NCBI GenBank assembly: GCA_002245135.1
Contig: NGBS01000011.1
Span: 62,001 to 126,000, forward strand
Length of the DNA: 64,000 nt
Source: Proteromonas lacertae
Lineage: Eukaryota
Reading direction: 5' to 3'
A model generated the notes under the pieces. The model was given only the letters and a program-made list of their open reading frames with translations. It was not told the origin of the DNA and ran no database searches. The stretch's first letter is position 1. Each line of letters begins with the position of its first letter. The translations under genes and the position numbers were made by a program. Below, piece by piece: positions 3,251 through 47,220 of this stretch.

Positions 3251-4750
3251 TCACTCTTCCTGTGATTTATCTTTCTGTTGTTTTTCTAGAATTGACGATG
3301 ATTGAAAGAAGGGGTATTGTTTTGGTTTGTAGTATTTTTTTACTATTGACTTTTTTATTTTTAATGTTTTTGATGAACAATCTTTTGATTCTAATTCTTT
3401 GTTGATGTACTCTTTTCCATAATATTCGAGTCTTCTCATTTTCTCTTCATCATCTATATATTGATTCAATATATTTACTGTTACGTAATTTAAACTACAT
3501 TTATTATGTATTTCCCATAACATAGGCAATCCATAAGCTGTTTTTATGGTATTCATATTTTCTATATTATGAAGTGATTTACCTATTAATCTCATCACCT
3601 CGCAATCGGGTTTGGCTTTATATTTCTCACATAATTTCAATAATAATTCATTTCTTATTTTATTAACTATTTCAGGATAATTACTATAATATACAATTAT
3701 TACATTTATCAAAATTATTCATTATATAAATTCCTATTTCCTTCATCTTATAATCCTCAATATCAAGCAATGAATTAATAAGATTGTTCATCTTTTCTTC
3801 ATTCAATTCTGATATTAATGATATATCTTCTTCTTTTATAATAACCTCATTTTCATCATAATAATATTTCATAACTACATTCTGAATATTTTCATCTTCT
3901 ACATTATATAAATCAATATATTTTATTGATTCATTATTATGCAAATCTATATCTAGAGATTTATAAACTCTTTGAAAATCATCATTTAAATCATCTATCT
4001 TCACTTTGTCATTATGAAAATGATTATTAATTAAACATTGAAACGAATTTGACATTTCAGAATCATAATTTTTCTCATTTATTCTATATGAATACCACTT
4101 TAATAATCTACTCAATAACCATGTCTCATTTCTTATTACCAAATTTGAAAATGATAAAATATCCTCTAAATTATTTTGCTCTAATTGTAATAGCCATTTA
4201 TCTATAATATATATATATATATATTACAAATATGTTGTATATACCATTATACATGTATTTGTATCCTCTCTTTTCAAATTCACTTATTTTAAACTCAGTT
4301 AGTTCTGATAAAACATAAGGAAAAACGTTCATTATATGAATTAAACTAACTAACAAATTATCATCTACATTTTCTTTAATAAATTCTTCGCATTTCTTCT
4401 CTATTACCTCTTCATTGTAACATATACAAAACATTAAAACATCACATACATTTGACTTAGTCAATTCAATTTCACCTCCACTGTAGTACTTTTCTAATTC
4501 AAAAAATCCCATTTTATTACATTCTTCAAACAATACCAACTCATTCCCCAATTTTTCATCTTCTAATAACTTTCTTAATACATTATTGCCGGTCATTAGT
4601 ATTGACTTAACAGAATGTATTTCATCATTGTTAATTCTCACTTTGACATCACCAAAACCATTCTCAACTAACTTTCTACCCAGACTAATATTAATAAAAT
4701 AAAAATGATTGATACCCACATTCTCTTAACTGATTGTTTGTTATCTTCAT
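3251..4750 (-). CDS. BTB/POZ-BACK-like domain protein
   Basis: GFGDVKVRINNDEIHSVKSIL...YYSGGEIELTKSNVCDVLMFCICYNEEVIEKKCEEFI; paralog of 41515-43576; the junction near 3690 is not cleanly resolved. Confidence 0.75.
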
Positions 4751-4796: not shown

Positions 4797-7700
4797 ATGA
4801 TTCGTTTCATTTTGAAAAGAAGATTTATGAATATCATAATCCCCATCATTTTTTTGATCAAATTATTATATGCAGATGAATCTATAGTGTATAATGGTGT
4901 ATATGTATGTAAAAACACTCTTCAAGATAGTCAATTAAGCCATTTCTTGTCGTCGATAGTCAATGACTCATTCATTTTTCAAAACACTACATTTTATATT
5001 AAGGATATAAGTTGTCAGAACAGATGTAATGAAATGGCTCACACATTAGAAAGTTTAACTATAGAAGAAGGGGTAGATTATAATCCATATGTAATAGGAT
5101 ATTGGAATAATGTAACATTTCTATCATGTTTAAGTCCAACATTAAAGTTTTTAGGTTTGCATTTGTTTAATTTATGTCCTTTAACAAGCATTTGTGAATA
5201 TAACATATACACATCATATCATCCACAGAATCTTATACTTAATTTAATAAATATCGTAGTAGATTACCCTCCCTTGTCACTAATTTATAATAATTTAACT
5301 AATTTAAATCCCCTTCTGTATATTAGCAAGAATTTTTTCGCAGATTTGTTATTAAGAGAAAATATTCATATAATTAACAATGTAAATGATTATTCTGTAC
5401 TACGGCAGAATAGTAACATTAATCAATCAAACGGAATTATTTACATATTAAATGAAGAAAATTATGGGTTAAATGATTTTATTGAGTTTATTATATCACT
5501 TGAATCAGAGCCTGTAGTGTTTTTAGCTGGATATTTTAATAGTAATTTAAAGAATAATTTAAACAAATTCAATAAGTTTTACATTATTTCTCCTTATTTT
5601 TCATTTATAAATGAAGAAATAAATGATGAAATGAAAGTGGTAATACAAAATGTAAATCCAACATTTGAAGTAGCCACATTGTATATATATATTAATATAT
5701 GTTAATAGTTTTACATATTTATTGTATATTAATATGATAAATAATCAATCATCATCATCATTTTTCCCTCTGTATTATATTGACTTAACAATTGGAAAAT
5801 CATTCCAATCTCCATTTGGTGAAATTTATATGGATAAAGATCATTTCTTTGTATTACCAACATTCATATCCAATTCTTCATTTGAAATCATAAACAAAGA
5901 AATTATACCTTTAAAGTCTTCATATTCATATTTATATAATGTAAGTGAAATGATAAATTACTCAAATCGATTATTAATATGTAATTTTAAGCAGTATAAT
6001 CCAATCAATTATCGGAAAATGAAATATATAATAATTGTAAGTGATAATGAAGATGAGAAAATATTATTTCAAATGTTTTATGCAATTGTTTTAGTTGATA
6101 ATATAGATGAAAGCGATATGTCAGTATTATTCTACAGAAGTGTTAAAAATATTCCATATTATTTATATTCAGAAACATATGTTGGATGTATTATATCATA
6201 CTTGAATTATGAAAATAGAAATAAAATTGCATTATTAAATCATGCTGCTGTATGTTTATTTAATGTAAATACATTTGAAGGCTCTGCTTGTTCACCATTC
6301 ATTGTAAATGTATAATGAATTATTTTATTTTATTAATGTTTTTATAAATAGGTTGGTAAAAGTATAAATACTCTAGTTTCTCATTTTATTTCAATAATTG
6401 AAAAAAGAATATTAAATGATGAAGAATACTCTATAATTGGTTTAAAGAGTGATAATGACACTATGTCTGAATTAATGGATTTTAATTTTGGTTCAATTAT
6501 AATCAATAATGGATATAAATATAGCAATTGCTCTTATAATGATGAATTTACTGTTACATATTTCAATTCATCAACAATTATAGTTTCATTTATGTCAAAA
6601 GAAGACAATATTCAATTTATTAACAATTTTGGTCCATTTACTCAATACGAATGGAGTTTATACATTTTAGAATGGGAATTAAAAGATTCTATAAACAATC
6701 CAAAGTCAGAAGGGATTTTTACACTTTCAGAGTATTTTCAATATGAAAATGGAATATTTAACGATTTCTCTTTGAACAATATAAATGTAGAATATATTAC
6801 CACTGCATTTGTGTGTTCTAGGATAATCTTTCATGAATATGTATAGATATATATATACATTATTATTATTATTATATTTATAATTAGATTGAAATTCATA
6901 ATCAGGGAAGTATTGATAGTTACAAATTTAAGAATGATATAGTCAAAGATATATATTCTAATCAATATACAAAATCAAATGTTGTGAGAGTGGAAAATGG
7001 TAAATTTTTATTATATTCAAATTCTATTTCTTCAAGAATTATGTCTTATTACAACGTGAAAGACAATAAAATGACATTGTGTGGTTGGAAAAGTGAATCA
7101 ATTGATTATGATTCAGTTCATTTAATTGGTTTTTTATATGATATTTGTAGAAAAGAATATATTGATTATATTGATTATTTAAACTCATTAATATGGGTAT
7201 TAAATTCTGAATATGATGGAATAAAGTATATATTGTTATTGCCTTATTAATTTATAGTAATATTCCAGTTCTTATTCATATTATTTCATTTGTTTCATCC
7301 GATTGTAAAAGTAGTCGTTACAGATCATCAAGCAGAAAGTTTGTCTTAAATGATATGGAAAATTTATTAATGATTATAACACCATATTATCCCAATTTAG
7401 TAGATTTTATAAAATTAAATGCTAACAATGTAATTATCAGTTTGATTAATGAAAATAGTGGAGATTTATGTCTATCAAACATGTTTGTGTATGGAATTAC
7501 TCCATATCAACAAATATATCCGTTTTTCTATTATATTTTATTTAAAATAAGATATATTATCTTCTATGGAAATAGTGATAATCATCTAAGTTATATTCAT
7601 AAAGAATTAATAAGTAGTTATTGTGTAGCTTATATGATGAAATGCATATTTTTTGAAGCAATTGATAATAATGAAGATATAACGACAAACCCAGTTGTTA

Positions 7701-10700
7701 ATTACATTGAAGATTATGAAAATGAGATTACAGATTCAAATTTGTTTATTATTACTTCGTTTTCAATGTTTAGTGATGATAATATTTCTCATTTTTATAC
7801 TCAAATGAATGATTATTCACAGATTAATAATTATACTTTGAATTTTTTCGATTTATTGATGAATAGAAGAAAGTTTGTTAAAAACAGCTTGTATTCATTA
7901 AAGAATATAGATATACATTATGTTGAATCAATTTCAGCAGCTGAATACTATAATATGCTAAATTCATATATATCATTTAATTTAGATGAAATTATTCCTA
8001 TTGTTTATAATATATGGAATGCTTTAAGTAATTTTAAAGAAGCCTACGAATATACTATGTCAAATGATTTCCCTCTGTTATGGACAAAGTTAAGAAGCAT
8101 TATTTCTGATTATAATCACATAAACAATAAAATTAACTTCTTAGCTGATAATTATGTATATCAGAAGGTAAGAATTGTGAAAATGAATCGTATTACTAAT
8201 GAATATGATATTGTATTTTATTTAACTACACCAATCTTTAATGAAATATCAAATAATCTGATTTTTAATATCAATAAAGATTGTCATTCAATTTGTGAAA
8301 TTTACAGTCAATATGAAGCAAAATTGACCAATAAGAAAGGAGTATCAGTTTTGCTTGTCTCGACTATGAATGAAAATAATTATAATAAATCGATATATAG
8401 TCGAATTTCTCAATTGTTAAGTATAAATGAAATAGAAGTAACAACAAATAAATATTTAATTCCTTTCTATTATAATGCTATGAATACTTCAGATACTGAA
8501 ATAAATAATATTATCTCATTCATGAAGTCATTAAAAGTGAATTATAATATTACAATAAAACATATTTTTGGTGTATTTTCTGATTCAATTTATGAAGAAA
8601 ATGTGTTGAAGCATAATAGAGATGTTTTGTTTTGGTCTCCAATATTACATTCAGGTTTAGATTATAGTAAAAATATGTATATTTATATTATACTATCTTT
8701 CTTTTATAGAATCAATTGTGGCTTTTCATTTAGACAAATCATTCAAGAACCACTTTCCTATTTAATGAAATATTCGACCAAAATAGTGATTATATATTCA
8801 AATTATGAAATTGAAAAATTATTCATAGAAATGTTGCAACTATATATAAAAGTATTTGATAATGACAGTAAACAGGAAATATTAGCCAAAATTGCTCTAA
8901 AGAATGAAGAATTTGAAGAATTAGATAATATATTAATAGATTTTTATTACAAATATCCAAATGATAAAATAATTATATTGAATCTACTACAAGATCCACA
9001 ATCATCTCATTTTTTCCAATATTTTACATCACATCATTTAATTGAAGATTTTATAAACAAATTTCTAATTTTATCATTCGGTTCTACTCCATTATTTGAT
9101 TCTAACTTGTTTATTGGTCAATATGATGTAGTACAAATGTCAATGGAAGAAATAATAAAAGCAAATCCATACTTTTACAGTTTAAAAGAAGAGTTAATGA
9201 CAATTTTACCATTTTATTACTCAAATAATATGAGAATTTTTTGGAACACTTACATCTCATTAATACTATTTTCAGAATTACTGAATTTGCCTGATATTAA
9301 TAATATTTCTTCAGTATTAAACGAATTACCAGGAAAATATATTTATTTTGATAAATTTATTGGAAATGTAAAAATGAATGAATATTCAATGATAATGAGA
9401 TCTTTCAGATTGATGAAATATCACGATCCAAAATTGGCATATAGTTCAGAAGTTGTTTCATTTATTAATTATACTTCATCACCTATACTTATAGATTATG
9501 TGAAAGATAATTCAAAAATTGTGTATATGGGAGTATATATCAAGAATAGTAGTATATATAAACTTTGATTATTTTTATACTTGTAATAGATGCTGAATAT
9601 GATCCTTCTATTATATCAGCAGTATTGGATGCTTTTTCTTCAATTTTATATTTCTTTAATGATTTTGATATTACATTAATTCCAATAGTGTTTAAGACAA
9701 AAGATGAAATATTTAATAATAGTAATAGAAATATCAAACATACACTGTTTTCATCAACATATCTTTTTTTTTTTGTTTCAATACATAACTATTATTGTTT
9801 TTCTTAATTAATTGTACTAGAAAAGAAAATGATTGGCTAGTTAATAAACTTGTAAATGATTATAACAATACAAATAGAATTTTCCATGTTTTTAATGAAG
9901 AAAGTATGTTATGTTTAAAGAATGTGTTTTATTATTCACCAACTCATTATTTAGTAGCAAATGTTGCATCTGCATATCTCCATAGTGTTATCATGACTAA
10001 TATCTATCTATTATACTATGAAACAAATGAAATGTATTTAGATACGATTGTTGAAATATTCTATTTGTATGGTTTGAATCTAGTTGGTGTATCAAAAATA
10101 CCAATGAATAAAGAAAATTATAACTGTACAATTCAGTCAATATTTTTTAAGTTTAACTCAGGTGGATTATTCTATTGTTTAGGTTCAGATGATATTATTC
10201 CATTCCTTAATTCACTAATTCTATCAATTCAATTTGATTATCAATATTCATTTTATTTACAAGGATTGAATTTAGAAAGTATAACTGAAGAAATTACATC
10301 TAAAAGTAAATATAAATTGAATGTATTTTTTCATCATGTAACACCTCATTTGTATTATTTCGATCAAATTATACTAATCAAAACAGTAAATGAAGTATTT
10401 GTTTCGCAGATTTTATTCTTTATTCTAACAGTATTTAAGAATATACCAAACAGTATTGATGATACAGGTGTATTTTTAAACAAATACTATAATATATATT
10501 CTAATAAAACAATCAATATTTATTATCATAATATTCATATTAAAATGAGCAGAGGCCATTATTTATATCAACAATTATATTTATATAAAATGTGTTTAAA
10601 TGGTAAAAATGAGAATAAAATCTCTGCCATATTAAAGAATCCTGATTCATTTTTAATTAACAATCCCAATATGTACAACTATAAACCAATGTGTGATTTT

Positions 10701-13700
10701 CCAGCGTATAATGATAGAGAAACATATAATATAGCATTATCCTTTTCAATTACAGGAACTGATAGAGAAAGAGATATTAACATGTTTTTAGTTGCATATA
10801 GAACATTGGTATATTTAAACGAACTTTTCGATGTTGTAATAGATGGAGTAATAAATAAAATATATTATGTTATTTATGATTTGAAATCTGATGAAAAATA
10901 CTGTGAAGAAGTATTAAAGAAGATAGTTAGTAAGAATATCACGTATATTTTTGGTTTTGCTCATTACTGTTTTCAGTACTTAGTATATTATCCAAATCTA
11001 GTAGTTTACTATCCAAAATTACTTCCAGAATTTAGATATAATAATTATTTACCTCCCAACGTAATTAGTTTTGGTGGAAAAATAAAACAGTTATTATATC
11101 CATTTCCCTATTTCACAACACAGTTTCATAGTTTCAATTTTGTGATTGTTTATACAAATTCTACGATGATGTCTAAATATATTCCATCGATTGAAAAATA
11201 TCTAAGTATTTATTCATTTGATATTTATACAGTATGTGTTAATGAGAGTAATATATTTATGAATGATTATATTAATAAAATATTACAAAGAATCTATTTG
11301 AATGAAACAAAATTATACTCAATATTATTATATATGTCATTCACTCAAACAAAATTGTTTTTAAATTCATTTAATCAGTATTATGATAAATATAAAAACC
11401 ATATAAAAATATATCTTATTAATTCAGGTGATAAATATTTGACAATTATTAAACCAAAGTATAAATGCTATTCAATTTCATTTTATTTTTCAAATGTTGA
11501 TAGTCAAGCAAATGAAATATATAATGCAATTGTTAATATAATTACTCCAGAATCTTCTTCCTATGGTTATTCAGTTGCTTCATTTGATTCAATATTCTCC
11601 TTTGTTTTAGTAGTAAGGAAAATTCATTCATTTGATCCACAAAAGGTATTTCAATTCTATAAAGATAATCGTGAAAATACCTTTTCATTTACATCTGGAA
11701 AGGAAAGTTTAAACGAGTATAATTTCTTAACAAAACATTCATATATTGGTGCTTATTATCCTGAAGAAGATAAATTTAAAATTGAATTTGACACAAATAT
11801 AATGATCAATTATTATCCAGTAAAATATGATTATGATAATCAGATGGTTGAAATTAGATATGAATCAACAACAAATGAAAATGTTACTGAAGTTCGTTAT
11901 AGAAGAATGTTTACAATTCTTTTTTTATGCGATTGTAAAAGTAATATGTATTGTAATAATTTATATGAATTATTAAAAACAGGAATGTTTATCTACAATA
12001 ATGATAGAGAAAGTGATAATAAATATTGTATGTTTTTGAAAAAGGTAATGAGTGAAGAAAACGAGGAATCTATTCTATTGATTAAAGATCATTTAAGCAA
12101 AGGATATTTAACTGCTTTATTCATATCTGCAAGTGAAGAATATCTAAAGAGATTAGCAGAATATTCAATAATAGGTTCAAACGTTAATATAAATCCTAAT
12201 TTCTTTGTATTCTTTTTAACTCCAGAACTAAAAGCTTCAATGGAAGGTATTTCATATAAAAATGTAGTTTATGCAAGTGGTAATGTATTTACTTTTTTAA
12301 GACACACAATAACTCATGTAATATTGGAATCAATCAAATTCAATGATAAGATTTCAATAATCTATTTTAATTCATCATTTTATAATTATTGTTCCACAGA
12401 AATAGAAAAGATGTTTAGTTTATATTATCCATTAACAATGGTATATAAATTAGATATAATGAAAATTATAAATAGAGAATATAATGAAATGAATATTCAA
12501 GATGTAAAAGTGATATTAACAGTTATACCTATGGATATGGAGAGATTAATTCGTAGTTTAAATTACTATAATGTTTCAAGATCAATACCTATTATAGCTT
12601 TATATTATCAATACGAAATAATGAAAAAAGAACCGAAAATATTTTATATAAGAACTTATACTAAAGATATAAATAAGAATTGGAATAAGGAATTGAAATA
12701 TATTTTTAATACTTCAATGTTGGTGTCAGATGGAATTGATGTAGATGTTACAATGATTGACATTTGGGCAACTTTATATCGTTCATTTTACATATTAAAA
12801 TCACATTTGAATAATAGTAGAAGTAGTTTAGTTTCATTAGATAAAAGTAATATATTTACACCAACAATTACATATAATGATAATAAAAATAATGAAAAAG
12901 TAAATTATTTAAATCAAGATTATTATTTATTTTTTTATCATGAATTGAATGATGAAAATGTTATTCAATCATATGGTTTTGATATACCACAAGATTTATA
13001 TATCGATGATGCTTCAATGATGTGTGGTTGGGTATGCAATAATGAATATTTTAATCATTTAAATAATTTTGATAATTATATTTCATCAATAAAAGTTGGA
13101 ATTTTGTATAATCCATATAATCCAGATTTAGTTCAATATTCCAGTTTTTTACTACATACTATTTTATACGATATATTAATATCAGATTCGGTGAATGGAT
13201 ATAAAATCCAACCATACATTTGTAGTAACCCAAATTATGTTGAATGTGATGAAATACTAGAATATTATGAAAAGAAGAATATTAATTTCATTTTCGGTGG
13301 ATTTTTTAGTGTATGTTTAACAAAAATGTTAGAATATTTTTCCAAAAATGAAGAATCAAAATTGTTAGTGTTTTATACTGGTGAAATAGATGATTATTAT
13401 TGTGATAGACATATTATTCAAATGGGTCCAACTCCATCTCAAATTATCAACTTGTTATTATTGACAGAATATAATGCTGATATACCATTTAGTATAGTTA
13501 CTTCTTCCAAGAATCAATATCCAAGAAAAGTAGCTAATTATTTTGAAGATACATTTCTTCGTTTAGGATTTGAAGTTGAAGTAATTGATATTGATCAATT
13601 AAATGATGAGATTTCATTTAGTTTTGTTAATCCGATAATTGTTGTTGCTTTAAATAGGGATGAACAGTTGGAATCATTTCATTCACTTATTAAACGTAGG

Positions 13701-16453
13701 AGTCACAATTACAATAGAAATGTTGAGATTTTTACAAATTCAAAGTTTATTTATATTGCCTGTGGTGAAGAAATGGTTTCAAGATTTGGATATTCTAATA
13801 GTGAAATATTAATTACTTTTCCGCCAAATTCATATTTTATAGATAGTTTTTTCCACCAGCTAACAGTAATCACAAAAGGTACTTCAACATTTGATGTAGA
13901 AATAAACAAAGATATAACAATGATCTATTCTACTCTTTTAGGTGGAATATATTATATTCCAAGTACAAGTGAAATGGTTTATACATCTTTTGAAATATGG
14001 AAAGAAGTTACAACAAAATTAGATACATTTGATGTGGAAGAAATAAGAAGAAGTTTATATAATTATGGATATTTCGGTGCAACAGGTCCAATTACCATAT
14101 TGAGCAATAATTTTGTTTCAAGAAGAATGTTTTATGGAAAATATAATTCGTATTTAAAAATGATTGAAGTAATTTCATCACCAACTTCACAAATTTTACC
14201 TCATAATATAAGAGAAAAACCTTTCATATGTGATTGTCAATCAAAACAAGAATGTTCAGTGGATGATTATAAAGAAAAGTATTATCAAGTAATAATTGTG
14301 TATGATGAGAAAGAAATAAAAGCATCAATTATCTTGGCTGTCGTTACATTATTATCTCAAATAAACGAAGAAAATAATAAATATATGGAGTTTAACAATT
14401 ACAACAGAATTATGGTATCACATATAATAATCATTAGAAATGGAATAATACCAGAAGAAGAATATAACAATTATATAGTAGATGAAAGAACAGTTGCATT
14501 ATTAGGATGTATGTCTATCCAATGCAAAGAAATCGTTACACCAATTGCTGATAAATACAAAATACCATTTTTTTATATAGGAAAGTATTATCCAACCTAT
14601 TCTCCATATACTTTTTATTTTGGTATAAATATTGATACATCTATAATTTCATTAATCAAATATTTAAAGTCAATTGGATTAAATACCATAATAGTTATTG
14701 AGAATAGAGATGATATAAAACTAGATAATATTGAAAATGATTTCATTCCATATACAGATATAATTTCAAGATTAACTTCTCATTCTGAAAGATATGATTT
14801 TGATTTAATAATAAATGGTTACTATTATGTAGAGATTAATGAAACATATTCTAACTTGAATTATGTTATGTCTCATTTAGAGGCAATAAATGACAGTATA
14901 GTATTAATTAATTTCCTTAATGGAGAGAATCTGAATCAGTTTCTAGGTAAATATTATACTTCAAAAATCAAAACAAATATAGTTACAAATATATTTATGT
15001 CATTTAATTCTTATGATATTGATGAAAACATTCGTCATTATTTAGAAGGGAATTTAGTTATGCAAATGTATACTGCTGATCCATCTTCATTAACTTCAAT
15101 GATTTCTGTATTTGAGTTTCACAATTCTTTTGGGAATTTATTAAGAATATCTGATCCAATGGTTTCGCTTATGATCAGTATTGATTGTTTGTTCTTTTCG
15201 TTAAAAGAGATGTTGAAAATTGATATAGATTCTTATTCTCATAATGAAATACGTAAAGTTGGAGAATATGTAAGATTTTTAGCATATAAATATGATAGTG
15301 GAAATAATTGTATAATTATTTATATTCTAATCTTTCATTAGATAAATATTTCTTTCAAACATCAAATATTTTATATCATGAATTAAGTCTTGCATTAATT
15401 ACAAATCCATTTGGTTATAGAATTATTGAATCATATGCTCCAGTTGATGAGAATATGAATCATTATGATTATGGTCCAGCAGATATTATTTACAAAATTG
15501 AAACAGTTACAAAAGCAATAATCATTTCTGCAGTTGCAATATTCTTTATAATAATGTTAACAACAATGATTTATTTAATAAAAACAAGAGAAAACAAAAT
15601 ATATAAAACAGTTGGATATAAATATGCATTGATATTAATAATCATGAATATGTTTATCAATGTTTTACCAATTATATTCATTATTCAGCCTATTACAAAA
15701 TATGTGTGTTACCTTCGATATTATTTATTAAGTTACTTTTTATTAACGTTATTGTCCTTATTATACAATCGTGCAGCAGTAATAGCGAAAGTAACAGGCA
15801 ATCGAACTTATTTTAGAGTAAGATTGAGTGAAACACAACAAATATTGAGCATTATGTATCCAATTTTGTTGTTTACTATTATAACAATAATATTTCGCAT
15901 TATTAATGGCTCTGAAGTAACAAGAAGGTTAGATCACAGCAGTTTATTTGCAAATGTTTATTTAGAATATTGTACAACATTAACATATGAATTTGGAATA
16001 ATGACTTGCTGTTTATATATTTATGTATTGTATGGCTTCAAACTAGGATGGGATATAAGGTATGTTGGTAATGGTTATTTCTGCTCAACTATTATTACTA
16101 TTAATTTTGTTTTAATTATTGCCGGAGTTATTTTAATACCAACATTTAGTATAATTGGTGGAATGGATAAAGAAAAAAGCTTGATATGGGTTTGGGTTTG
16201 TTTAGTTTTTTCAGTAGCTATTTGGTTTTGCATATTTGGGCGTATATATTAATAAAATTTTATTTAATAGAATTAATTTATTACATTAAAAAAGATGATA
16301 GTAGTAAAACAACTTTTTCTGAAGCATTATCATATCTTTTTTTTTCAATTTACTTATGTAGTTATGTCTATTTAATTAATATTTAATCCAGTCGAATATT
16401 CTTCAAGATTTTCAATGAATAGCATAGAATTCAAAACTAATGATTCAGATTAA
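4797..16453 (+). CDS. Giant class C (GABA-B/mGluR-like) GPCR-like receptor: signal peptide, ~9 tandem periplasmic-binding-protein type I (UrtA/AmiC-like) modules, 7TM domain
   Basis: Consecutive + strand ORFs joined by short GT-AG introns; hydrophobic N-terminus; module 8 IKVGILYN...KIQPYI...INFIFGGFFSVC...LLVFYTG...CDRHIIQMGPTPSQII resembles UrtA/AmiC; 15308-16252 has class C-type TMs (IKTRENKIYK, VCYLRYYLL, YLEYC, GWDIRYV). Confidence 0.8.
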
Positions 16454-24100: not shown

Positions 24101-24607
24101 AATTAGAAGCAATTAGTCAAAAATAGCAATATGACTCTATTTAACTACACACACATACATCAAAAATCACATAATATCACGATTACATTCAATTACCTAG
24201 TCAAAATTAATATTGTCCTTTCTGGAATACTCCTATAATATACATATCGTATATAGGTAGTGATTACGTATAAAATTTATTAACATATTTCAGTCCCTAT
24301 TAGCCAAATACGTGGTATTTAAAATCAGTACAGTTCGAGATGTATTATAGTTTTTAAAGCTAATAAATTATATAAATCAAATAAAAATATATCAATGTTA
24401 TTATTTATGTTTGTTGTTATTCAATTATAATGTAAAATATCAAAAACAGACGAATGACATGAAAGAGGTAATTATGAAACTAAGTATACTATGATAAAGC
24501 TCAAAGCATGATACATCGTTTGACAAATTTTTACTATTTTATTCCTTATAGTTATTGAGAAAAATCTATTTAAAGTCACAAAAAGCACTTAGAAAATTCT
24601 TATCGTG

Positions 24608-24687
24608 TAAAACTTCATAGCCAGCTTCTATATTTTTAAATAAAGAAAATATTTTACCATTTTTTTTATTTCTTCTATTTCATCCAT
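24608..24687 (-). pseudogene. Orphaned original 5' exon and intron of copy B, separated by the transposon
   Basis: Identical to the copy A 5' end (MDEIEEIKKM|KLAMKF). Confidence 0.8.
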
Positions 24688-25224
24688 TGCAATATCAAAA
24701 AATTTTATTACTACTAAAAACCAATTTCTTTATCGTTACTAAAGAACATTAGAAAAAAAGCATAGGAATAGTAGGAAAATAAATTATAAATCAAATAACT
24801 AACATAATATACTAGATTATATCACTCTAGTAGACATTTCTAATAATTTTTCTAAACATAAGAATATTGGTGATAATTTATGGCTTATACCTCAACCATA
24901 TTCTACAAATAACAGTGCACAAGCGAATCCATCACCTAACCTACGAAATCCAAATATAATTATACCCTTTGTTGGTTTAAATTTTATCAATCAACAAGTT
25001 AATATTCTTAGAAACAAATAATCTTAATTTTAATAACTTCAACCAACTTTTGTTATTTTTGCTTTAATTTAGTCACATAACACAAGGCTATTACATTATT
25101 ATTTATTTATGATTACTTCTTAATCATTTCCCTACACACAATAGAAGTAAAAATTCAAAAAATTAAAAATAAGATAAAATAGAAGAAGGTAAATCGAAAA
25201 AAATCTAGAATCTATATACATACA

Positions 25225-26329
25225 TTACATAGAATTGCATGAATTTAACGATATATTCATATCACTAACATTCATTTTGTTAAGTGAAATAAAAGAGTTA
25301 TTTTCACAACTTTTTTCTTTATAATCTTTATAACTTTTCATTCTTTCTTCTTTTATAGGATATAACCTACAAATATCATTTAAAATGTTAAATATGGAGA
25401 TAATCTGTCCAGAATTTGGATTAATTACATTTAATTGATTTCTATAATCTGATTCATATGGACATGATTTATGAGTGAATAATACTCGACTTAAATGTTC
25501 ACATTTCGTTTCTACTAACTTTGAACCAAGAATCTGCAAATCTAAGTCTTTGAATATTCTTATTCTATTTGTTATTTCTAAGTATAATTCTGCTGAGATT
25601 ATCTCTTTTACAAGTGTATATTTTATATTGCATAAAAATGATTTAAAATATGAATTATCATTTAACAACTCACACACTTCATCAATATAAATACCACCAC
25701 CACCACTTATAGCACTAGATATAATATAAGTATAACATATACTCTTCACTGAATGAAATAGAAATACAATCACTTTGAAAATATGAGAGAAATTTTACCA
25801 ATTGATTGAGTAGTATTTCAGCACTTGGATTTATACCACATGCGCATAACAATACTATACATAAAAAGGATAATTGAAATACATCTCACTAAATGTTCAA
25901 CAGGACTAAACGCAAACCCATACAAAAATATAAAAAACACATTAAAATCTATTCGTGAATCTATCATAATAGTTATAAGAATTTATACTATTTATTTTGA
26001 AAAATTTGTCAAATAGTAAAGAATTGTTAAATCCAAGCTTATATATAAAATCATGAGCTTTGATGTAAGGATATGCTTGATTTGAACTCCACATAGACAG
26101 GAATTTGTTTTGTAATAGAGATAATTCATGGTAGTTTACTAAAGTAAATATATTCATATATACAACATAAAATATAGGCTATGTTGAGTGAAGTTGAGTT
26201 GATAAGCAGCTGCGGTTTCAGATTATTAAGGAAACTGGTTCTTCTACGGTAATACTTCATAGCTAACTTCTATATTTTATTATAATAAATAAATATTACC
26301 ATTTCATTAATCACTTCTACGTCATTCAT
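25225..26329 (-). CDS. EF-hand family copy C
   Basis: MNDVEVINEM start; same exon pattern; ORFs 25225-25773 and 25942-26157. Confidence 0.7.
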
Positions 26330-41514: not shown

Positions 41515-43576
41515 ATGAAAGTAATTGATAATTAAATTGGTCAAAATGGGTATTAAATTTAGTAATTAATTTTATAGGTTAAGTCGATTACTTGTGGATA
41601 ATGGTTATGGTGATTTGAAAGTAAAAGTGGGAAATGAAGAGATAACCTGTGTAAAGAACATATTAATGAATGCAAATTCAACAATCAAATAGTTATTACT
41701 AGATGATAAGCAGAGTGAAGTATTAGAGTTGTTTGAAAAACGTGAAATACAGTCATTTTTAGAGATAGAAAAGTTCTATAGCGGAGGTTATATGGAATTA
41801 CATGAGAATAACATCTGTGATATATTGAGATTTAGTATATATTATTATGATAATCGAATAATGAGAATCTGTAAGAGATATTTAAAGAATCATTTGAATG
41901 ATGATATTATGATGGAAATATTCGATATGTTATATGAAATAAATATAAATAATGAAGTATTAAATGAATTAGTTAATATGAGTGAGAATTATATTAATAA
42001 GAATGGATTTAAATACTTAAACGATGGTATATACTGCATATATTTATAATAGATGATTTGTTGTTAAAACTGAATTTTAAATCGATTGCTGAGATGGTAT
42101 AAGAATAAATTGTCGGAGAAAGAAGAGAATAAAGAGGACTTGAATGAGTTTATCTCAATATTAAAATCAAAGATTCATTTGAATGAAATAATAGTAGAAG
42201 AATTAGAAGCAGGGAATTTGTCAATACTGAAAGAGTTTAAACTCGAAATAAAAGAATATGTAAATGATCACATATGTATAAAAACAAAAGAAATTAGTAA
42301 TATTGAATTGATGGAAATAATTAACGAATATTATATTGAAGATGAAAACAAAATTGAGGTGAGTGAAAGTGATATGATAATATTATTAAAGAATGAAGTA
42401 AAAATAGAAATGATAAAGCTATTATCATCTAGTGATGATATAAAACTGATTGAAATTATCTTATCTTTAATAATGGAAATGAAAGCTTCTGAGATTATAT
42501 CATCAGATTTGAAGAGTGTATTGTTATTGAAATTATTATGTGAATATAATCTGACTAAAAGAATTAGAGCATCAAAATGTTTGTGTTTATTTGTGGATAA
42601 CTGTGAGTATATCTCTACAATAAAATGTCTTTGTGGAAAAGAGGTGTTATTTGTTATATTGAATAATGAGTATTATCTTAGAAATGAATCTAAACAGTTA
42701 TTAATAAAATATATTATTGAAATGAATTTAAGTAGAAATGAAAAAGATGAAATGGGTAGAATTATAACTAATAATGAGATGTTGAATGAACTGAAATTTA
42801 ATGATATAACATCTTTTTCATATCCTCAGTCACAATATTCATTTCCAGTAGATGAAGATATTGAACTAATTCCTTTATTTGATGGAAAAGAATGTGAGTT
42901 TACAATAAATCCTTCATTACCTGATGGTATAGTATTAGTTAAAGGCAGTGGAATTATTCATGGAAAAGCAGAAGATTCTTTAGAAAATTGTGAGTTTGAA
43001 ATAATATGTAGAAATAATGTAAGTGAAAAAATATGTAAAATATCAATAGCATTCATGTTGGGTTTATTTACAGAAGTAAACAAAAGTGATGGAATATTTA
43101 TATCAAGTAATGGGAAAATAATGAAAAATACAAATGTCTGTTATAGTCATTGCTATATAAATCTAAAAATGAAAAGTGGGATATATCATATCAAATATAA
43201 GTTTAATCAAAATGGGAGTAAATATGATTCAATTGTTTTAGGATTATCAACTACAAATAATTATGCTGGTAAAGATATTCAAAATAGATCAACAACATGC
43301 AATTATTTTGCTGCTAATGGAAGAAGTCAAGATAGTAATAGTTGTAAGTGGTTTCATGTTGGAACAATCGTTAATAAAAACCCACATTTCAATAATCATA
43401 AAGAAGGTTGTATTTATGAAATGATAGTAAATATGTATAACAGAGTGTTATCCATTTCACTTAATGATTAAATTCCTGTTGAATTAATTAAAGATCTGCC
43501 TTCAACGTTATATCCATATGCTATTTGTAAAGCTAATGCTTCTATTGAATTAATGTCAGTGTCTAAACATAATTAA
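41515..43576 (+). pseudogene. BTB + putative-Ig + SPRY-like protein, disrupted
   Basis: In-frame stops TAA 41533, TAG 41690, TAA 43469 and a probable deletion/frameshift near 42085 relative to paralog 3251-4750; FTINPSLPDGIVLVKGSGIIHG Ig-like motif. Confidence 0.7.

Positions 43577-46220: not shown

Positions 46221-47220
<1,000 letters not shown>

What the first reader, a model, noticed from the sequence alone, without database searches (positions are those of the whole stretch)
4797..16453. Giant GPCR-like receptor with about nine tandem bacterial-type Venus-flytrap modules
Seen: one spliced gene of very roughly 3,700 codons with a degenerate repeat every ~1.15-1.2 kb. The UrtA-like 'EGxxCSxNIxxxG' motif recurs near 5190, 6290, 7460, 8650, 9900, 11050, 12245, 13390 and 14590, and a 7TM region follows. 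Known: class C GPCRs normally carry a single flytrap, and UrtA/AmiC proteins are bacterial urea/amide binders. Inference: a multi-ligand sensor or long ectodomain receptor built by amplifying a PBP module. I do not know this architecture from characterised receptors.
Basis: partly seen in the sequence, partly recalled or inferred. Interest (0 to 1): 0.88.

Follow-up and report, generated by a model that had tools for sequence, protein, structure and literature searches.

The report
Nine-flytrap giant G-protein-coupled receptor
This protist gene is predicted to encode one 3,700-residue cell-surface receptor with nine bacterial-type nutrient-trap domains in a row above a G-protein-coupled membrane domain; same-shaped relatives keep the full set of urea-binding residues and are likely urea sensors, whereas this copy lacks them and likely senses something else.

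Summary
Confirmed, with refinements. The + strand from 4797 to about 16.3-16.5 kb models as one spliced gene of about 3,710-3,760 aa: a signal-like N-terminus, nine UrtA-type (Peripla_BP_5, PBP-I) modules of 336-397 aa, then a class C 7TM (7tm_3, E 8e-10, above cut-off). The one awkward junction is explained by a predicted U12-type AT-AC intron (9759-9817). Modules 3-6, 8 and 9 are well supported; 1, 2 and 7 more weakly. The design is not unique: four unnamed proteins of 3,745-4,080 aa carry nine modules plus 7tm_3 in single reading frames. Three of them keep all eight known urea-binding residues in 5, 7 and 8 of 9 modules and never in the membrane-proximal one; the window protein keeps at most 3 of 8. 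Best reading: an old family of multi-trap class C GPCRs, probably urea sensors at origin, expanded and repurposed in an AT-rich, likely Proteromonas-like gut flagellate (host inferred). No transcript, ligand or G-protein coupling was shown. Ten paper searches found no description of the array; Peripla_BP plus 7tm_3 is listed as an architecture in a 2014 survey. The scan earlier noted a five-flytrap class C GPCR in octopus.

The parts
4797..16453 (+). Predicted gene for a 3,714-3,761 aa receptor; 9-11 exons; 3' end uncertain (16252, 16386, 16422 or 16453)
4797..4889 (+). Start (4797, or the second Met at 4827) and hydrophobic signal-peptide-like stretch
   Evidence: hydropathy 1.95 at 4833-4889; no signal-peptide predictor was run
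4878..6009 (+). Module 1, degenerate PBP-I (weak support)
   Evidence: profile 7-12 bits, near the control range; Atlas lead 0.85 to Peripla_BP_6/ANF clusters
6010..7106 (+). Module 2, degenerate PBP-I (weak to moderate support)
   Evidence: profile 7-15 bits
7107..8329 (+). Module 3
   Evidence: profile 17.1 bits
8330..9508 (+). Module 4
   Evidence: profile 49.7 bits
9509..10715 (+). Module 5, split by two introns
   Evidence: profile 12.8 bits; 3' part 69% identical to P0001
10716..11894 (+). Module 6
   Evidence: profile 63.5 bits; model matches UrtA 8hic at Z 33.0, rmsd 4.1, 367 aligned
11895..13076 (+). Module 7, the most degenerate by profile
   Evidence: Atlas 0.95 to PBP-I clusters; 11.8 bits with the AT-rich family profile against control 7.0; same strand-helix order in the model at lower confidence; not covered by the fold-search rows
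13077..14267 (+). Module 8, best conserved; candidate ligand-binding module
   Evidence: Peripla_BP_5 E 9.6e-9; UrtA 7s6e E 1.1e-7; Z 38.8, rmsd 2.8, 360 aligned; pocket positions E, D, N invariant in 4 of 4 subfamily members
14268..15484 (+). Module 9, membrane-proximal, joined directly to TM1 with no cysteine-rich domain
   Evidence: Peripla_BP_5 E 2.4e-4; continuous with the 7TM in P0002-P0004
15515..16237 (+). Class C-type seven-transmembrane domain
   Evidence: 7tm_3 E 7.9e-10; seven hydropathy peaks, TM3 and ECL2 cysteines kept; subfamily profile hits mGlu3 and GABA-B2 at E 5e-4 and 1e-3
5681..5708 (+). Predicted GT-AG intron, 28 nt
   Evidence: restores frame
6310..6351 (+). Predicted GT-AG intron, 42 nt
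   Evidence: removes in-frame stops
6841..6887 (+). Predicted GT-AG intron, 47 nt
7226..7257 (+). Predicted GT-AG intron, 32 nt
8677..8709 (+). Predicted in-frame GT-AG intron, 33 nt (optional for the frame; its removal restores the module motif)
9552..9589 (+). Predicted GT-AG intron, 38 nt
9759..9817 (+). Predicted U12-type AT-AC intron, 59 nt, with a U12-like donor and a branch-like octamer just before the AC; joins the 5' and 3' halves in frame
   Evidence: the AT-AG variant ending at 9820 keeps the same frame
15310..15341 (+). Predicted GT-AG intron, 32 nt, between module 9 and the 7TM exon
   Evidence: ORF P0001 stops at the same place; P0002-P0004 run through it without a break
16242..16270 (+). 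Predicted GT-AG intron after TM7 (uncertain), followed by a short tail exon and possibly one more intron (16361-16391 or 16332-16391)

Best explanation
The locus is predicted to be one gene for a class C-type GPCR whose ectodomain is a chain of nine UrtA-derived Venus-flytrap domains, and it likely works as a small-molecule sensor that has been repurposed away from urea. Shown by sequence: nine modules in series, a 7tm_3 domain, and four full-length relatives of the same layout, three of which keep the whole urea-binding residue set in most of modules 1-8 but never in module 9. Inferred: the ancestral receptor bound urea (or a like-sized amide) in several distal traps, while the ligand-free module 9, attached straight to TM1 as in GABA-B, passed the conformational change to the 7TM and a heterotrimeric G protein. 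In this AT-rich gut lineage the whole gene was duplicated many times and the pockets diverged. In the window copy module 8, the best conserved, with an acidic E/D/N pocket shared by its subfamily, is the likely binding site for a new small ligand; the degenerate distal modules likely act as a long stalk or as weak, divergent sensors.
For: 7tm_3 above cut-off; seven TM peaks with the TM3/ECL2 cysteines and a basic residue at the TM3 position where relatives have Lys. Module hits tile the ectodomain without overlap. Model of M6-M8 matches UrtA and AmiC best (Z 33-39). 4 of 5 hits have 9-10 Peripla_BP_5 stretches plus 7tm_3 in one frame; 13 of 16 hits are long multi-module proteins, 7 with 7tm_3. 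The 5' half aligns to the first five modules of these relatives far above shuffles (285 vs 125+/-16; 247 vs 63+/-5; 147 vs 71+/-6; 167 vs 65+/-7; 20 shuffles each). Urea residues W120, S122, Y141, Q144, E146, Y190, N246, S274 (PMC10392092, passages) are complete in 8 of 9 modules of P0047, 7 of 9 of P0048, 5 of 9 of P0005, 0 of 9 of P0050 and 0 of 9 of the window protein. An ortholog-like ORF is 68% identical over 1,770 aa. Proteromonas lacertae has 116 class C 7TM, 182 PBP-I and 7 G-alpha entries (PMC12129017 Table S5).
Against: No transcript, ligand, localisation or G-protein data. Modules 1, 2 and 7 are weak by profile. The M8 pocket is not significantly more conserved than the rest of M8 (0.52 vs 0.33, P 0.064, 4 sequences), and in the wider AT-rich family the M8 pocket is less conserved than average (0.16 vs 0.23). 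The TM6 acidic partner of the class C ionic lock is not evident in the window sequence (role recalled). The fold model leaned on an alignment with UrtA-like rows; the single-sequence model was poor (pLDDT 34). The host, and so the presence of G-alpha, is inferred, not shown; no genome was held.
Confidence: 0.6

Rival explanations
1. The ectodomain is a ligand-free structural stalk: a long, likely glycosylated chain of dead flytraps used for adhesion, contact or force sensing, as in adhesion GPCRs.
For: All 9 pockets are degenerate and differ from module to module; 38 N-x-S/T sites in the model; fast divergence among paralogs (21-39% identity).
Against: Module 8 is much better conserved than the rest (77% to P0001, 36% to P0002) and keeps invariant E, D, N at pocket positions in 4 of 4 subfamily members; relatives with intact pockets show the array began as a binding device.
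Confidence: 0.17
2. The protein is a non-binding partner subunit in a heterodimer, like GABA-B2: a paralog binds the ligand and this chain helps trafficking or G-protein coupling.
For: The family's 7TM is closest to GABA-B2 and B1 among solved structures (P0050, E 3e-15 to 7e-9); no cysteine-rich domain; many paralogs are available. Obligate dimers in class C are established knowledge.
Against: No AT-rich paralog examined keeps an intact urea pocket either (0 of 13 proteins); no dimer test was run.
Confidence: 0.1
3. The region is two genes, or a decaying copy broken in module 5.
For: The only GT-AG rescue of the junction is an odd 74-nt intron; the window's only run of 10 or more identical bases lies there; P0001 and P0003 start inside module 5; no relative covering the 5' exons at high identity was found.
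Against: An AT-AC intron with U12-like donor and branch site restores the frame and scores higher than the 74-nt version with 4 of 4 profiles, by about 1-4 bits; shuffles give 3.7 such donor-branch-acceptor sets per 128 kb, so one at this junction in the right phase is unlikely by chance; module 5 straddles the junction; the 3' half has no signal peptide and the 5' half no membrane anchor; the total length matches the single-frame relatives.
Confidence: 0.07
4. The window protein still binds urea through an altered pocket.
For: UrtA is the closest solved structure by sequence and fold; M8 keeps S122, Y141 and N246 equivalents.
Against: W120, Q144 and Y190, each needed for urea binding in UrtA (PMC10392092), are replaced in M8; no module has more than 3 of 8 residues.
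Confidence: 0.06

Closest known systems
GABA-B receptor subunits (class C GPCR)
   Same: PBP-I flytrap joined directly to a 7tm_3 domain with no cysteine-rich domain; closest solved 7TM for the family
   Different: One flytrap of the LIVBP/ANF type, against nine of the UrtA type; heterodimer and G-protein coupling not tested here
UrtA urea-binding protein of the UrtABCDE ABC importer, and AmiC
   Same: Fold and sequence of each module; full binding set in relatives P0005, P0047, P0048
   Different: Single, soluble or lipid-anchored bacterial domains; no tandem copy turned up in the pattern scans of prokaryote genomes; the window's pockets are degenerate
Non-animal class C GPCRs with bacterial-type binding domains (Peripla_BP, OpuAC, Bmp plus 7tm_3; gut-fungal SBP type II receptors)
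   Same: A prokaryote-like solute-binding domain fused to 7tm_3; 'Peripla_BP//7tm_3' is listed in the supplement of PMC3971589; about 100 such receptors in gut fungi (PMC5168858)
   Different: Copy number is not given in the passages seen; gut-fungal ectodomains are 200-1,600 aa and type II, against about 3,430 aa and nine type I modules here
Tandem-flytrap sensors BvgS/EvgS and trypanosome receptor adenylate cyclases
   Same: Flytraps in series, with distal and membrane-proximal domains behaving differently (PMC4352136, abstract)
   Different: Two flytraps, a single membrane helix and a kinase or cyclase output, not nine flytraps on a 7TM (trypanosome paper PMC6027212 seen only as a listing)

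Membership tests
Class C (glutamate-family) GPCR | 7tm_3-type seven-helix domain | tested here: met
   Pfam 39.3 bits against cut-off 33.5; seven hydropathy peaks; profile hits to mGlu3 and GABA-B2
Class C (glutamate-family) GPCR | N-terminal extracellular flytrap (PBP-I) domain on the same chain | tested here: met
   Model needs one short intron; P0002, P0003, P0004 carry modules and 7TM in one frame
Class C (glutamate-family) GPCR | TM3-ECL2 cysteine pair | tested here: met
   Both cysteines align across all 8 sequences with a complete 7TM; the feature itself is recalled
Class C (glutamate-family) GPCR | TM3-TM6 ionic lock and TM7 FxPKxY-like motif | tested here: inconclusive
   Basic TM3 residue kept; TM6 acid not evident; TM7 end depends on the uncertain intron at 16242; motifs recalled
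Class C (glutamate-family) GPCR | Dimer formation and G-protein activation | not testable with these tools
   No functional data; no complex job was sent
mGlu/CaSR/T1R subgroup | Nine-cysteine domain between flytrap and 7TM | tested here: not met
   No cysteine between residues 3367 and 3528 of the model; no NCD3G hit
UrtA urea-binding proteins (TIGR03407) | PBP-I fold of the AmiC/UrtA branch | tested here: met
   M6 and M8 at Z 33-39 to UrtA; TIGR03407 E 7.6e-7 but far below its cut-off (28.4 vs 492.75). Fold search covered 2 of 9 modules
UrtA urea-binding proteins (TIGR03407) | Eight conserved urea-pocket residues | tested here: not met
   At most 3 of 8 in any window module; complete in most modules of P0005, P0047, P0048
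U12-type intron (9759-9817) | AT-AC ends, extended 5' consensus, branch site close to the 3' end | tested here: met
   (consensus recalled; one mismatch each in donor and branch); actual splicing not shown

The most novel reading that the evidence does not exclude
An undescribed, old family of giant 'antenna' GPCRs in microbial eukaryotes: up to eight intact urea traps strung above one ligand-free transducer trap and a class C 7TM, which would be cell-surface urea receptors with many binding sites per chain. The window gene is a member of a gut-flagellate expansion that kept the nine-domain scaffold and rewrote the pockets into a repertoire for other host or gut metabolites.
Probability: 0.5. 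Interest if true: 0.85.

Novelty: new variant of a known kind. Interest (0 to 1): 0.74.

Why it matters
Characterised class C GPCRs carry one flytrap per chain. A nine-trap chain raises a testable question: how does closure of a domain far from the membrane reach the 7TM, and do many sites give cooperativity, avidity or a wide sensing range? The relatives with intact pockets point to a concrete ligand, urea, a major nitrogen source for which I know no eukaryotic cell-surface receptor (recalled; search found none), and single modules can be tested by calorimetry in bacteria. The degenerate AT-rich branch offers a natural series for how a receptor family changes ligands in a gut symbiont lineage close to Blastocystis, which has lost class C GPCRs and G-alpha.

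Tried and rejected
No genome is held for the window, so paralogs and G-protein genes could not be counted in the host. No RNA holder was listed. Word-index searches with module 8 among longer proteins and with the 7TM found nothing (0 of 580 and 0 of 860 candidates); only the full HMMER scan reached relatives. No related locus in JGI metagenome contigs (0 of 259 pattern matches confirmed). A module-junction DNA pattern gave 2 loci in metagenomes, 3 in GTDB genomes and 0 in viral contigs; 4 of the 5 hold one ordinary UrtA gene, 1 holds none, none has two modules in one frame; the pattern fixed one Cys codon, so this negative is weak. Direct self-BLAST found no repeat. The single-sequence fold was unusable. 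The 7TM alone had no PDB sequence hit and its Atlas query did not complete. First guess of a tortoise-type Blastocystis host was dropped: those genomes have 0 class C 7TM, 0 PBP-I and 0 BTB entries, while the window has this gene and a BTB gene. A 74-nt GT-AG intron and a one-base assembly error in the 11-T run were both considered for the module 5 junction and are less likely than the AT-AC intron, though profile scores differ by only a few bits. No Rfam match in the window. No second receptor gene in the window. No complex prediction was sent.
Full report
Gene model. The window is eukaryotic, 20-33% GC per kb, with short introns. Between 4797 and about 16.4 kb the + strand carries long open frames that switch frame at AT-rich GT-AG stretches of 28-47 nt. 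Seven such introns plus one special case give an open model through TM7; the tail is uncertain, so the length is 3,714-3,761 aa and the end 16252, 16386, 16422 or 16453. The special case lies in module 5: the only GT-AG rescue is a 74-nt intron that removes part of a core strand. An AT-AC intron at 9759-9817, with a U12-like donor and a branch-like octamer just upstream of the AC, restores the frame and scores above the 74-nt version with all 4 profiles tried, by about 1-4 bits. Shuffled sequence gives 3.7 such donor-branch-acceptor sets per 128 kb (30 shuffles). U12 introns are documented in Blastocystis ST1 (346; PMC5608401, passages), and U11/U12 25K and RNPC3-type domains are counted in Proteromonas lacertae (PMC12129017 Table S5 rows). 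The U12 consensus itself is recalled. No reads were available to confirm any junction.

7TM. 15308-16249 matches 7tm_3 above the curated cut-off, has seven hydrophobic peaks and keeps the TM3 and ECL2 cysteines. Alone it has no PDB hit; a subfamily profile hits mGlu3 and GABA-B2 weakly, and the relative P0050 hits GABA-B2 and B1 best. There is no nine-cysteine domain. P0002-P0004 run from module 9 into the 7TM without a break, which supports the intron at 15310-15341. A short motif just before TM1 and the ECL2 stretch are shared with the distant full-length relatives, so the membrane part, not only the modules, is homologous.

Modules. Pfam sees 2 of 9 modules and direct module-to-module similarity is faint (13-27% identity; 3 of 36 pairs above z 4 with 100 shuffles each). 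A profile built from relatives tiles the ectodomain with nine non-overlapping hits. Without the four closest relatives the scores are 7.9, 7.4, 17.1, 49.7, 12.8, 63.5, -0.5, 137.2 and 55.6 bits, best control 4.8 of 61; per-module controls reached 8.7-9.2 of 279. So M3-M6, M8 and M9 are solid, M1 and M2 marginal, and M7 needs other evidence: ESM Atlas 0.95 to PBP-I clusters, 11.8 bits against control 7.0 with the AT-rich profile, and the same strand-helix order in an AlphaFold2 model of M6-M8 (mean pLDDT 68.7, lower in M7). M1 gave only an Atlas lead (0.85). The model's best matches are UrtA and AmiC: M8 to 7s6e Z 38.8, rmsd 2.8, 360 aligned; M6 to 8hic Z 33.0, rmsd 4.1, 367 aligned. The alignment used for the model contained UrtA-like rows, so the match is not fully independent.

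A family. A full HMMER scan with M8 gave 16 proteins: 13 long multi-module proteins, 7 of them with 7tm_3, and 3 single-module bacterial-type proteins. P0001 is 68% identical over 1,770 aa and ends where the window's intron 15310 begins. A second search with P0005 gave 5 proteins among 2,149 candidates: P0005, P0047, P0048 and P0050 (3,745-4,080 aa) each hold nine modules by my profile (Pfam counts 9-10 stretches) plus 7tm_3 in one frame; P0049, named by its source as Pfiesteria piscicida, has such modules with ephrin-like repeats and no 7tm_3. In a FastTree tree of 94 sequences (91 of 95 modules, 4 under 280 aa dropped, plus 3 bacterial UrtA) modules tend to group by position: position 7 in 7 proteins (0.94), position 8 in 8 proteins (0.99), position 9 with the window's M9 (0.86), and five same-position pairs between P0005 and P0048 (0.90-0.96). 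I assigned positions of truncated proteins from the C-terminal end; the window's M1-M5 and M7 sit on long unresolved branches, several P0047 modules group with each other instead, and the tree has no tested root. The reading is an old array inherited whole, with some later homogenisation.

Ligand pockets. UrtA binds urea through W120, S122, Y141, Q144, E146, Y190, N246 and S274, and mutation of W120, S122, Q144, Y190 or N246 abolishes or strongly lowers binding (PMC10392092, passages). The numbering maps exactly on the bacterial hit P0013. All eight are present in 8 of 9 modules of P0047, 7 of 9 of P0048 and 5 of 9 of P0005 (its first module is truncated, 6 of 6 visible); module 9 has 1-2 of 8 in all three. 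No module of the 13 AT-rich proteins or of the window protein is complete; the window's best is 3 of 8. In the window's subfamily M8 has invariant E, D and N at three pocket positions in 4 of 4 sequences, but the pocket is not significantly more conserved than M8 overall (P 0.064), and the wider AT-rich family shows no pocket conservation.

Host. Not shown. Low GC and 28-59 nt introns first suggested a reptile-type Blastocystis (PMC12129017, passages and section 5). Its Table S5 argues otherwise: P. lacertae has 116 class C 7TM, 182 PBP-I, 7 G-alpha, 75 RGS and 105 BTB entries, the three tortoise Blastocystis 0, 0, 0, 2 and 0, and the window has a BTB gene. A Proteromonas-like gut flagellate is the likeliest host; another AT-rich protist is not excluded.

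Mechanism. Shown: architecture, family, pocket status. Inferred: ligand closes one or more traps, the change passes down the chain to a ligand-free module 9 and to the 7TM, and a heterotrimeric G protein is activated; urea was the ancestral ligand; the window copy binds another ligand, most likely at M8. I give this 0.6; rivals are a structural or adhesion stalk (0.17), a non-binding dimer partner (0.10), two genes or a broken copy (0.07) and retained urea binding (0.06).

Literature. Ten full-text searches found no description of a multi-UrtA class C GPCR. Known neighbours: 'Peripla_BP//7tm_3' in a supplement figure of PMC3971589, copy number not visible (passages and supplement text; its file 1 could not be searched); gut-fungal class C receptors with type II binding domains (PMC5168858, passages); a GPI-anchored single flytrap in Entamoeba (PMC12965686, abstract and passages); two-flytrap BvgS (PMC4352136, abstract). 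The P. lacertae genome paper, subscription journals and preprint supplements were not seen and may mention the expansion. Earlier scan notes report a five-flytrap class C GPCR in octopus and a four-module protist membrane receptor; I did not test them, and no note matched this sequence or genome.

Verdict. Real, conserved and apparently undescribed: a new variant of class C GPCRs. Interest 0.74, carried largely by the intact-pocket relatives.

Noticed in passing
P0005, P0047, P0048 (proteins): Full-length nine-module receptors with complete urea-binding residue sets in 5-8 modules; better targets for a ligand test than the window gene. Organisms unnamed.
   Followed up: partly
P0049 (EukProt, Pfiesteria piscicida as named by the source): UrtA modules, one intact and flanking ones degenerate, alternate with ephrin-receptor-like Cys-rich repeats ahead of a multi-helix membrane region without a 7tm_3 hit: a second receptor type using the same module.
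   Followed up: partly
window 16332-16391: A second U12-like donor followed by a T run in the same gene's tail; it would give an AT-AG intron and an end at 16422.
   Followed up: partly
window 16.8-19.5 kb and 24.6-27.9 kb (- strand): Four tandem paralogs of an unknown spliced gene; two copies share 843 bp at 99% and 17841-19475 matches 24597-26226 at 90%. No Pfam hit for the two copies scanned.
   Followed up: partly
window 50.8-61.3 kb: A run of closely packed, seemingly intron-poor ORFs with no clear Pfam or PHROG match; one has a Walker-A-like stretch near 59.4 kb. It could be an integrated mobile or viral element; no relative in viral contigs for that ORF.
   Followed up: partly
window 4201-4725 (-) and 41693-43471 (+): BTB-domain gene head to head with the receptor gene, its frame starting about 70 bp from the receptor start; a second, similar-looking gene lies at 41.7-43.5 kb.
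   Followed up: no
window 46221-46941 (-): Spliced pantoate-beta-alanine ligase gene (Pfam E 4.5e-28), a domain also counted in Cafeteria, Proteromonas and most Blastocystis.
   Followed up: no
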